Program-made: the position numbers and the translations under genes
In this document: piece by piece, positions 9,609-9,767 of the stretch
How positions within the stretch are numbered: position 1 is the first letter of the stretch
How the letters are laid out: every line of letters begins with the position of its first letter
The notes under the pieces: model-generated
What the model was told of the DNA's origin: nothing
The model's input: the letters and a program-made list of their open reading frames with translations, nothing else
The model's database searches: none
Assembly (NCBI GenBank): GCA_902775565.1
Contig: CACYMP010000005.1
Span: 17,911-81,910 of the forward strand
From: Oscillospiraceae bacterium
GTDB taxonomy: Bacteria; Bacillota; Clostridia; Saccharofermentanales; Saccharofermentanaceae
DNA length: 64,000 nt
Reading direction: 5' to 3'

Positions 9609-9617
9609 AAACATCTC

Positions 9618-9742
9618 ATTCCACGTTTCGTTCCACGTTTTACCGGAAAAGTGGAATGTAACGTGGAATATAGGACAAAAAAGCAGCGGATTCCACGTTT
9701 GCTTCCATGTTTTGCATAAAAGATGGAACGGATCGTGGAATC
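9618..9742 (+). repeat. Two tandem, architecturally identical imperfect hairpins built from eight TTCCAC(G)/TTCCAT motifs
   Basis: Hairpin A: ATTCCACGT (9618-9626) pairs with ACGTGGAAT (9661-9669) as the outer stem, and TTCCAC (9631-9636) pairs with GTGGAA (9651-9656) as the inner stem. Hairpin B: GATTCCACG (9689-9697) pairs with CGTGGAATC (9734-9742), and TTCCAT (9703-9708) pairs with ATGGAA (9723-9728). Each has a symmetric internal loop, a short A-U extension and a tetraloop. Confidence 0.8.
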
Positions 9743-9767
9743 TGCCCGCATAAACGAGGTAATACAA

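What the first reader, a model, noticed from the sequence alone, without database searches (positions are those of the whole stretch)
9609..9767. Twin hairpins built from eight TTCCACG-type motifs between the DUF2828 gene and rtcB, with a compensatory base change
SEEN: the 159-nt spacer contains two tandem hairpins of the same design. Each has a 9-bp outer stem ((G)ATTCCACG(T) paired with its complement) and a symmetric internal loop (4x4 nt in A, 5x5 nt in B). Next comes a 6-bp inner stem, one purine-purine mismatch, 3-4 A-U pairs (a G.U wobble closes hairpin A) and a tetraloop (ACCG in A, GCAT in B). The inner stem is TTCCAC/GTGGAA in hairpin A and TTCCAT/ATGGAA in hairpin B. That is a C->T change matched by G->A on the opposite arm, consistent with selection for pairing. 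The same core heptamer forms both the outer and inner stems. ESTABLISHED: in Salmonella the Y RNAs yrlB and yrlA sit in exactly this position, between rsr and rtcB. INFERENCE: three readings are possible. The hairpins may be a processed small RNA (Y-RNA-like stems with internal loops as protein-binding sites). They may be an RNA element controlling rtcB translation, since hairpin B ends about 25 nt before the rtcB RBS. Or they may be a DNA operator array of inverted TTCCACG sites.
Basis: partly seen in the sequence, partly recalled or inferred. Interest (0 to 1): 0.72.

Follow-up and report, generated by a model that had tools for sequence, protein, structure and literature searches.

The report
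Strain-variable twin RNA hairpins before rtcB
The two hairpins are real and look like a selected RNA structure on the operon's messenger RNA. They are an optional extra found in only a few close relatives, and the operon's real Y-RNA-like genes lie upstream of the Ro60-like DUF2828 gene.

Summary
The 159-nt DUF2828|rtcB spacer (9609-9767) carries two tandem stem-loops, 9618-9669 and 9690-9741, each about 24 bp, built from eight TTCCA/TGGAA boxes. They are far more stable than chance (z = -6.5).

They are not a conserved part of the system. Of 55 related species-level operons where rtcB directly follows DUF2828, none has them. Seventeen close syntenic contigs have a 16-nt spacer instead. Only five other contigs carry them, always at this site, and no copy occurs elsewhere.

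Where present, they look selected:
- 95.6% of stem cells pair, and three pairs show compensatory changes.
- All nine G.U cells fit the + (mRNA) strand, and every unit folds better on that strand.
- The eight boxes are 39/40 identical between two lineages whose remaining spacer is 56% identical.

Best reading (about 0.5): an accessory cis-acting structure on the DUF2828-rtcB mRNA that acts in processing, stability or uncoupling. Unrelated hairpins occupy the same site in 31 of 55 related operons.

The Y-RNA reading is not supported for the hairpins. However, DUF2828 models as a Ro60-like fold. Conserved tRNA-like, Y-RNA-like modules lie upstream at 7978-8122.

The parts
9609..9767 (+). Intercistronic spacer between the DUF2828 (Ro60-like) gene and rtcB. 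It holds the whole element.
   Evidence: It is 16 nt long in the closest syntenic relatives.
9618..9669 (+). Hairpin A: outer stem ATTCCACGTT/AACGTGGAAT, inner stem TTCCAC/GTGGAA, a G x A mismatch, UUUU/GAAA pairs and loop ACCG. Energy -27.2 kcal/mol as + strand RNA against -22.2 as - strand.
   Evidence: covariance-model hit 9615-9672, 80.5 bits
9670..9689 (+). A-rich single-stranded linker of 20 nt (ATAGGACAAAAAAGCAGCGG) between the hairpins. It is also 20 nt and A-rich in the divergent copy L218. Candidate endonuclease cleavage site (inference).
9690..9741 (+). Hairpin B: outer stem ATTCCACG/CGTGGAAT (extendable to 9687-9744), inner stem TTCCAT/ATGGAA, a G x G mismatch and loop GCAT. Energy -28.2 kcal/mol (+) against -20.9 (-).
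   Evidence: covariance-model hit 9687-9744, 78.4 bits
9756..9770 (+). rtcB Shine-Dalgarno sequence GAGGT (9756-9760) and start codon ATG (9768-9770). The upstream in-frame ATG at 9723 lies inside hairpin B and is not the start.
   Evidence: relatives start at the equivalent of 9768
8142..9608 (+). DUF2828/DUF7788 protein, 488 aa, predicted Ro60/TROVE-like fold (helical repeat ring plus vWA domain).
9768..10979 (+). RtcB RNA ligase, 403 aa. It is the last gene of the operon. A terminator-like hairpin with a T-run follows at about 10978-11010.
6853..7833 (-). Divergently transcribed WYL/WCX-domain regulator, 326 aa.
7978..8048 (+). Y-RNA-like module 1: closing stem AAGACAC (7979-7985)/GTGTCTT (8041-8047), then TCACAGCGA, then T-arm CGCAGGTTCGAATCCTGC (8014-8031). 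This is context, not part of the hairpins.
8064..8122 (+). Y-RNA-like module 2: closing stem AAGGTGC (8065-8071)/GCACCTT (8115-8121), followed by ACACAGCAA.

Best explanation
The twin hairpins are an accessory, lineage-restricted, cis-acting RNA structure on the + strand DUF2828-rtcB messenger RNA.

Proposed mechanism. Two stem-loops of about 24 bp are separated by a 20-nt A-rich single-stranded linker. They sit between the stop codon of the Ro60-like gene and the rtcB ribosome-binding site without covering it. They most likely act generically as an intercistronic processing and stability element. Cleavage in the linker (RNase Y type) or in the long duplexes (RNase III type) would leave hairpin A as a 3' end protector on the upstream [Y-like RNA + DUF2828] transcript. 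It would leave hairpin B as a 5' end protector on the rtcB message. The long spacer also breaks the tight 16-nt translational coupling seen in hairpin-less relatives. The net effect would be to set the DUF2828:RtcB expression ratio.

Shown:
- The structure exists.
- Pairing is preserved on the + strand.
- The TTCCA/TGGAA boxes are conserved.
- The element is restricted to this site and is dispensable.
- Unrelated hairpins recur at the same site in relatives.

Inferred: transcription through the spacer, the nuclease cleavage, and the effect on stability and expression ratio.
For: 1. Real and very stable: z = -6.5; 6th of 12,788 local windows.

2. Pairing is kept across 8 distinct hairpin units from 5 loci: 95.6% of cells pair. 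Three pairs show changes on both sides. All slid-register controls give 40-59% pairing.

3. Strand polarity. There are 9 G.U cells in the + sense and only 1 C.A cell. Every one of the 8 units is 4.6-11.3 kcal/mol more stable as + strand RNA than as - strand RNA. The whole spacer folds at -66.4 against -53.4.

4. Purifying selection. Window-type and L218-type spacers are 39/40 identical in the eight TTCCA/TGGAA boxes. Elsewhere they are 67/120 identical (Fisher p = 1.5e-7). The flanking coding DNA is 90% identical.

5. A stable stem-loop at this exact position is recurrent but non-homologous. Of 55 related operons, 37 have spacers of at least 30 nt. Of those, 34 fold at -10 kcal/mol or better and 31 have z of -2 or lower. 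Several are terminator-like with T-runs.

6. No promoter-like or terminator-like site is predicted in the spacer on the + strand, so read-through mRNA is expected. The operon ends in a terminator-like hairpin after rtcB.
Against: - There are no expression data. Transcription, cleavage and stability effects are all inferred.
- The near-invariance of the eight 5-nt boxes goes beyond what pairing alone requires. It hints at a sequence-specific partner that this generic model does not need.
- The element is absent from 17 close syntenic contigs. Hairpin-bearing loci are not monophyletic in the wyl, duf or rtcB trees or in the 240-nt flanks, so any benefit is conditional or small.
- Only 5 distinct loci, in 2 divergent types, carry it. 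The covariation statistics are therefore thin: 10-23 of 500 shuffles reach the observed values.
- Templated quasi-palindrome correction could mimic compensatory change.
Confidence: 0.5

Rival explanations
1. Selfish or neutral palindromic insertion. The 140-nt block would be a relic of a small mobile palindromic element (MITE, PATE or REP-like), or a product of local 12-nt duplication plus hairpin-templated repair. It would have no role for the host. Pairing would be maintained by the mutational mechanism or by the needs of a transposase.
For: - Presence/absence polymorphism among close syntenic relatives, with a clean 16-nt 'empty site'.
- Patchy, non-monophyletic distribution.
- The two similar imperfect hairpins lie in direct orientation, like the two ends of IS200/IS605-type derivatives (own knowledge).
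- A possible 4-nt AAAC repeat flanks the window copy.
Against: - No other copy in the 64-kb window with filters off.
- None in 774 kb of related loci.
- None among the listed metagenome hits: 118 of 120 were single chance matches without a hairpin.
- None in viral contigs, phages or plasmids.
- There is no convincing target-site duplication in L218.
- The element kept its boxes and pairing while the rest of the spacer diverged to 56% identity. The G.U polarity fits RNA and not DNA.
Confidence: 0.2
2. Specific protein-binding RNA. The hairpins would be cut out of the operon transcript as one or two small RNAs of 55-130 nt. Their UUCCA:UGGAA helices would be bound by a dedicated protein, such as the Ro60-like DUF2828 protein. 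They would then be an extra lineage-specific Y-RNA-like or decoy module.
For: - The eight boxes are 39/40 identical between diverged lineages, beyond the requirement for pairing.
- The cassette really is Ro60-like plus RtcB.
- In Salmonella the Y RNAs occupy this position (PMC7790460).
- In one relative, L027, this spacer does host a copy of the conserved Y-like module 2.
Against: - The hairpins lack every feature shared by 71 Y-like modules of this cassette: the AAGAYAC/GTRTCTT closing stem, the ACAGCAA block and the T-arm.
- They are absent from nearly all cassettes that have the same protein.
- There is no Rfam match.
- No processing signals are evident.
Confidence: 0.15
3. DNA operator array. 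The eight TTCCA boxes (4 forward, 4 reverse, with 12-bp spacing within each pair) would be binding sites on double-stranded DNA for a transcription factor, WYL or another, that controls rtcB.
For: - Box sequence conservation.
- Regular 12-bp spacing and the arrangement of two forward boxes, two reverse boxes, repeated twice.
- In duplex DNA a single 5-bp box explains all eight sites.
Against: - No TTCCA/TGGAA box lies in the WYL/DUF2828 divergent promoter region, where a WYL autoregulator would be expected to bind.
- No promoter-like site lies in the spacer.
- No other array occurs in 64 kb.
- Gaps of 16 and 40 bp between inverted boxes are atypical for dimer operators (own knowledge).
- Positions next to the boxes change in a pair-preserving way, and all wobble pairs fit one strand, which duplex DNA would not select.
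Confidence: 0.08
4. Translational switch. A closing helix between the 5' flank of hairpin A (AUCUC, 9613-9617) and the rtcB Shine-Dalgarno sequence (GAGGU, 9756-9760) would mask the ribosome-binding site. It would be opened by ribosomes terminating at the DUF2828 stop codon.
For: In the window and in L176, the minimum-energy fold pairs AUCUC with GAGGU. The pairing probability of the Shine-Dalgarno bases is 0.4-0.8.
Against: This is not conserved. In L201 and L159, which differ by a 1-nt deletion, and in L218, most Shine-Dalgarno bases have pairing probabilities of 0.01-0.3. A 5-bp helix is weak and easily arises by chance.
Confidence: 0.05

Closest known systems
Intercistronic mRNA stem-loops that set differential stability or expression within an operon. 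Examples: REP hairpins in malE-malF, RNase III sites between phage T7 early genes, and 5' stabiliser hairpins in Bacillus mRNAs (own knowledge).
   Same: - Located between two cistrons of one operon and on the mRNA strand.
- Long stable hairpins that do not cover the ribosome-binding site.
- Dispensable and strain-variable.
- Unrelated hairpins fill the same site in relatives.
   Different: - A single-locus element and not a genome-wide repeat.
- A twin design with eight conserved 5-nt boxes.
- No cleavage or stability data exist.
Salmonella rsr-yrlBA-rtcBA operon and bacterial Y RNAs YrlA/YrlB (PMC4201824, PMC7790460).
   Same: - The cassette pairs a Ro60-like protein (DUF2828, by predicted fold) with RtcB, a divergent regulator and tRNA-like noncoding RNA modules.
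- The hairpins occupy the position that yrlBA occupy in Salmonella.
   Different: - Here the tRNA-like modules lie upstream of the Ro60-like gene.
- The hairpins have no T-arm and no conserved closing stem, and they are absent from most cassettes.
- The regulator is a WYL protein and not RtcR.
- There is no rtcA.
- DUF2828 has no detectable sequence match to TROVE or Ro60.
IS200/IS605-derived palindrome elements (PATEs) and REP elements (own knowledge).
   Same: Two similar imperfect hairpins in direct orientation within about 140 nt, inserted in an intergenic site without obvious terminal inverted repeats other than the hairpins.
   Different: No second copy was found anywhere that was searched. 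No transposase lies nearby. The strand-specific G.U pattern fits the mRNA strand.

Membership tests
Bacterial Y RNA (YrlA/YrlB type) | Encoded next to, and on the same strand as, a Ro60 (TROVE) orthologue | tested here: inconclusive
   The neighbour is DUF2828/DUF7788. It gives no TROVE Pfam hit and no PDB sequence hit. Its AlphaFold model (pLDDT 67) matches Ro60 structures over the full length as the top 10 hits.
Bacterial Y RNA (YrlA/YrlB type) | tRNA-like domain with T-arm and D-arm (YrlA), or at least a T-arm (YrlB) | tested here: not met
   No T-loop motif and no tRNA-model hit in 9300-10000. The T-arm lies upstream at 8014-8031 instead.
Bacterial Y RNA (YrlA/YrlB type) | Conserved protein-binding stem formed by the 5' and 3' ends and shared among orthologous loci | tested here: not met
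   The hairpins lack the AAGAYAC/GTRTCTT closing stem shared by 66 of 71 upstream modules. They are absent from all 80 species-level loci.
Bacterial Y RNA (YrlA/YrlB type) | Bound by the Ro60 protein in vivo | not testable with these tools
   Needs co-immunoprecipitation or EMSA.
Intrinsic (Rho-independent) terminator or attenuator | G+C-rich stem directly followed by a U-run on the transcribed strand | tested here: not met
   The scan finds no terminator-like site in 9609-9767 on the + strand. Hairpin A is followed by AUAGGAC and hairpin B by CUGCCCG. Several relatives do have such terminator-like hairpins at this site.
Repetitive palindromic or mobile element (REP, MITE, PATE) | Multiple dispersed copies in the genome | tested here: not met
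   The covariance model with filters off finds only the two units in 64 kb. In 774 kb of related loci it finds only the same site. Collection scans give no hairpin-forming copy elsewhere. The whole genome was not available.
Repetitive palindromic or mobile element (REP, MITE, PATE) | Defined ends with target-site duplication or a specific target, comparing filled and empty sites | tested here: inconclusive
   Empty sites exist (16-nt spacer). Junctions are blurred by divergence. A possible AAAC repeat is seen in the window copy but not in L218.
Transcription-factor operator array | The same motif at the regulated promoter(s), and a promoter overlapping the sites | tested here: not met
   No box lies in 7834-8141. 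No promoter-like site lies in the spacer. No other array occurs in the window.
RNase III-type processing hairpin | Duplex of about 20 bp or more on the transcript | tested here: met
   Predicted helices of about 23-25 pairs, counting G.U pairs, in all 8 units.
RNase III-type processing hairpin | Staggered double-strand cleavage by RNase III in vivo or in vitro | not testable with these tools
   Needs end mapping in wild-type and rnc-mutant backgrounds, or in vitro cleavage.
Any curated Rfam family | Score at or above the family's gathering threshold | tested here: not met
   There are 0 hits in the window at gathering thresholds. The sensitive scan gives only sub-threshold microRNA-precursor look-alikes.

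The most novel reading that the evidence does not exclude
The eight invariant UUCCA:UGGAA helices would be specific docking sites for a protein of the RNA-repair cassette, for example the Ro60-like DUF2828 ring, or for a host or phage RNA-targeting factor. The twin hairpin would then be a newly evolved, lineage-specific Y-RNA-like or decoy RNA, processed out of the operon transcript and working alongside the conserved tRNA-like modules.
Probability: 0.12. Interest if true: 0.65.

Novelty: new member of a known kind. Interest (0 to 1): 0.35.

Why it matters
The twin hairpin itself is a small, strain-variable tuning element, and its practical importance is modest. It is a clean natural example of a selected but dispensable intercistronic RNA structure. 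Natural 'with' and 'without' alleles exist for direct testing.

The surroundings matter more. The work shows that the DUF2828 family, which has thousands of members and no assigned function, models as a Ro60-like ring plus vWA protein. In rumen and gut Clostridia it sits in a cassette with three other parts: a WYL regulator, tandem tRNA-like RNA modules with a covarying closing stem, and RtcB. This looks like a Firmicute counterpart of the enterobacterial rsr-yrlBA-rtcBA RNA-repair operon. It offers a second, independent system in which to ask what Ro/Y-RNA/RtcB modules do.

Tried and rejected
- Rfam at gathering thresholds on the whole window, and sensitive scans of 9300-10000 and 7800-8200, gave nothing relevant. 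The only hits were microRNA look-alikes and an isolated tRNA T-arm.
- ARAGORN found no tRNA in 7000-11000.
- Shine-Dalgarno masking by a closing helix is predicted in the window and in L176 but not in L201, L159 or L218. It was rejected as a conserved mechanism.
- Regulon-type DNA motif: no further arrays in the window.
- Mobile-element reading:
Only 2 of those were true copies, both at the same locus.
  - The viral scan gave 6 chance hits in tandem-repeat coding DNA.
  - Phage and plasmid blastn found nothing.
  - The covariance model found no extra copy.
- A profile of DUF2828 searched against PDB sequences gave no significant hit. NCBIfam and PADLOC also gave none for DUF2828. Only the fold comparison linked it to Ro60.
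- The literature holds nothing on bacterial DUF2828. Burroughs & Aravind 2016 could not be read, so prior description of this cassette cannot be excluded.
- The longer RtcB ORF starting at ATG 9723 was rejected. It lies inside hairpin B, has no Shine-Dalgarno sequence, and relatives start at the equivalent of 9768.

Full report
**1. What is there**

Window 9609-9767 is exactly the non-coding spacer between a 488-aa DUF2828/DUF7788 protein (8142-9608, +) and RtcB (9768-10979, +). A WYL/WCX regulator is transcribed divergently upstream (6853-7833, -), and a MatE gene converges downstream.

The spacer holds two tandem stem-loops, A (9618-9669) and B (9690-9741). They are 74% identical direct repeats 72 nt apart, separated by a 20-nt A-rich linker. 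Each arm carries two TTCCA-type boxes 12 nt apart. This gives eight boxes in the order forward, forward, reverse, reverse, twice.

Two details need correction:
- The 'symmetric internal loops' mostly close through C-G and G.U pairs in the minimum-energy fold, giving helices of about 24 bp.
- Hairpin B ends about 12 nt before the Shine-Dalgarno sequence and about 25 nt before the ATG.

**2. It is not chance**

- The region folds at -66.4 kcal/mol, against -39.6 +/- 4.1 for dinucleotide shuffles (z = -6.5).
- Hairpin A is the sixth most stable of 12,788 local 60-nt windows in the 64 kb. Most of the other most stable windows look like terminator hairpins.
- The inverted-motif pattern occurs twice, against 0.06 expected.
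- No Rfam family matches.

**3. Comparative evidence: the element is optional**

Eighty species-level loci encoding relatives of the DUF2828 protein were fetched. They come from rumen and gut Clostridia: Oscillospiraceae, Saccharofermentans, Butyrivibrio and Lachnospiraceae.

In the 55 loci where rtcB directly follows, the spacer ranges from 4 to 164 nt. None contains the TTCCA hairpins. The closest loci, L001 and L002, have only ATGAAAGGTAATACAT.

Look-ups of the nearest protein clusters gave 15 more syntenic contigs with the same 16-nt spacer and the same WYL and/or MatE neighbours wherever the contig reaches them.

The hairpins were found in five other contigs only, always at this site:
- L208, identical to the window.
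- L201, L159 and L176, which are window-type.
- L218, a divergent version.

Hairpin-bearing loci are not monophyletic in the wyl, duf or rtcB trees, nor in the 240-nt flanks. For example, hairpin-less L220 is 97% identical to the window at the start of rtcB, and L218 groups with hairpin-less L001. The element has therefore been lost, gained or moved by recombination more than once.

No copy was found elsewhere:
- Not in the 64-kb window, searched with a covariance model with filters off.
- Not in 774 kb of related loci.
- Not in viral contigs, phages or plasmids.

**4. Where present, it looks selected, and as RNA of the mRNA strand**

Over eight distinct hairpin units, 95.6% of stem cells form standard pairs. 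Slid registers give 40-59%. Three pairs show changes on both sides: C-G/U-A and G-C/C-G in the outer stem, and U-A/C-G in the inner stem.

All nine G.U cells are G.U only on the + strand, and there is a single C.A cell. Every unit is 4.6-11.3 kcal/mol more stable as + strand RNA.

Between the window type and L218, the eight TTCCA/TGGAA boxes are 39/40 identical, while the rest of the spacer is 67/120 identical (p = 1.5e-7). The flanking coding DNA is 90% identical. So non-box positions drift roughly neutrally, while pairing and boxes are held.

The sample is small: two divergent types. Some shuffles reach the observed covariation (10-23 of 500). This is moderate evidence, not proof.

**5. Context: a Ro60-like, Y-RNA-like, RtcB cassette**

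The DUF2828 protein has no sequence match to TROVE or Ro60. Its AlphaFold model has only moderate confidence (pLDDT 67). Even so, its ten best PDB matches are all Ro60/Rsr structures aligned over the full length (E 1e-8 to 3e-5).

The RNA partners are elsewhere, however. In 61 of 80 loci, the region upstream of DUF2828 contains a tRNA T-loop motif. In the window it contains two modules, 7978-8048 and 8064-8122. Both have the same design: a 7-bp closing stem, an ACAGCAA-type block, and in module 1 a perfect T-arm.

Across 71 distinct module copies, the closing stem is AAGACAC/GTGTCTT in 51 and AAGATAC/GTATCTT in 15, which is compensatory. RNAalifold recovers the closing stem and a T-arm in which four of five pairs change on both sides (six such pairs in the whole consensus structure). 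In more distant loci the insert is an almost complete tRNA, detected by the Rfam tRNA model and by ARAGORN, some with A34 anticodons (aat, ata, aac, aga) that I consider unusual for bacteria.

These are the YrlA-like elements of the cassette (compare PMC4201824). The twin hairpins share none of their features.

**6. Mechanism**

The spacer has no promoter-like or terminator-like site on the + strand, and the operon ends in a terminator-like hairpin after rtcB. The hairpins should therefore be transcribed as part of the DUF2828-rtcB mRNA.

A stable but unrelated stem-loop occupies the same intercistronic site in 31 of 55 related operons, and several are followed by T-runs. That argues for a generic, structure-based role at this position.

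I therefore favour (about 0.5) an accessory processing, stability or uncoupling element. Cleavage in the A-rich linker or in the long duplexes would give the upstream and downstream messages hairpin-protected ends. Replacing the 16-nt coupled junction with a 159-nt structured spacer would alter the DUF2828:RtcB ratio. These steps are inferred.

Rivals:
- A selfish or neutral palindromic insertion (0.2).
- A specific protein-binding or Y-like small RNA (0.15). The box conservation keeps this alive.
- A DNA operator array (0.08).
- A Shine-Dalgarno-masking switch (0.05). Prediction shows it is not conserved.

**7. Verdict**

The hairpins are a new, narrowly distributed member of a familiar class, intercistronic mRNA stem-loops. 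Their interest is modest. The cassette around them, and especially the Ro60-like fold of DUF2828 with its tRNA-like RNA modules, is the more valuable lead.

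Noticed in passing
window 7978-8048 and 8064-8122 (+): Two tandem Y-RNA-like modules lie upstream of the DUF2828 gene. Module 1 has closing stem AAGACAC/GTGTCTT, then TCACAGCGA, then a perfect tRNA T-arm (8014-8031). Module 2 has closing stem AAGGTGC/GCACCTT, then ACACAGCAA. The design is conserved in most of 80 related loci, with a covarying closing stem (51 CAC/GTG against 15 TAC/GTA) and a covarying T-arm. No Rfam family matches.
   Followed up: partly
window 8142-9608 (+): The DUF2828/DUF7788 protein has no sequence match to TROVE or Ro60. Its AlphaFold model (pLDDT 67) hits only Ro60/Rsr structures as the top 10 PDB matches over the full length, with a vWA-like C-terminal half. DUF2828 may be an unrecognised Ro60 analogue.
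   Followed up: partly
L159 9714-11219, compared with window 8142-9608: The DUF2828 gene is a recombination mosaic. L159 encodes WYL 98.8% and RtcB 99.8% identical to the window, but its DUF2828 is only 80% identical. The gene trees of the three genes are incongruent. This suggests diversifying exchange of the Ro60-like gene.
   Followed up: partly
L017, L028, L038, L054, L064, L073, L077, L080, just upstream of the DUF2828 gene (around locus positions 3700-3950): ARAGORN and the Rfam tRNA model call tRNA-like genes here. Several have A34 anticodons (aat, ata, aac, aga), which I consider unusual for bacteria (own knowledge). They are embedded between the conserved AAGAYAC and GTRTCTT strands. 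They look like tRNA mimics and not decoding tRNAs.
   Followed up: partly
L027, DUF2828|rtcB spacer (131 nt): This spacer contains a copy of module 2 (AAAGGTGCATACAGCAA...GGCACCTTG). In some genomes a Y-like module does sit between the Ro60-like gene and rtcB, as in Salmonella.
   Followed up: no
L008, DUF2828|rtcB spacer (123 nt): There are five tandem 12-nt repeats (CTTAGTGAAAAG-like) followed by a terminator-like hairpin. The period is 12 nt, the same as the spacing of the TTCCA boxes in the window. Possibly coincidence.
   Followed up: no
window 7896-7924 (-) and 7915-7930 (+): A near-consensus sigma-70-type promoter (TTGACT-17-TATAAT, 11 of 12 matches) faces the WYL gene. Its -35 region lies in a block (AAGTCAATCTGCATCT) that is conserved across related loci. 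It is probably the regulator's promoter or operator.
   Followed up: no
window 9723-9767 (+): The mechanical ORF list starts RtcB at ATG 9723, inside hairpin B. This 15-codon extension has no Shine-Dalgarno sequence and is absent in relatives. The real start is 9768.
   Followed up: yes
window 10978-11010: A G+C-rich hairpin flanked by an A-run and a T-run (AAAAACTCCCGTC...GGCGGGAGTTTTTT) lies between the convergent rtcB and MatE genes. It is a likely bidirectional terminator that ends the operon.
   Followed up: no
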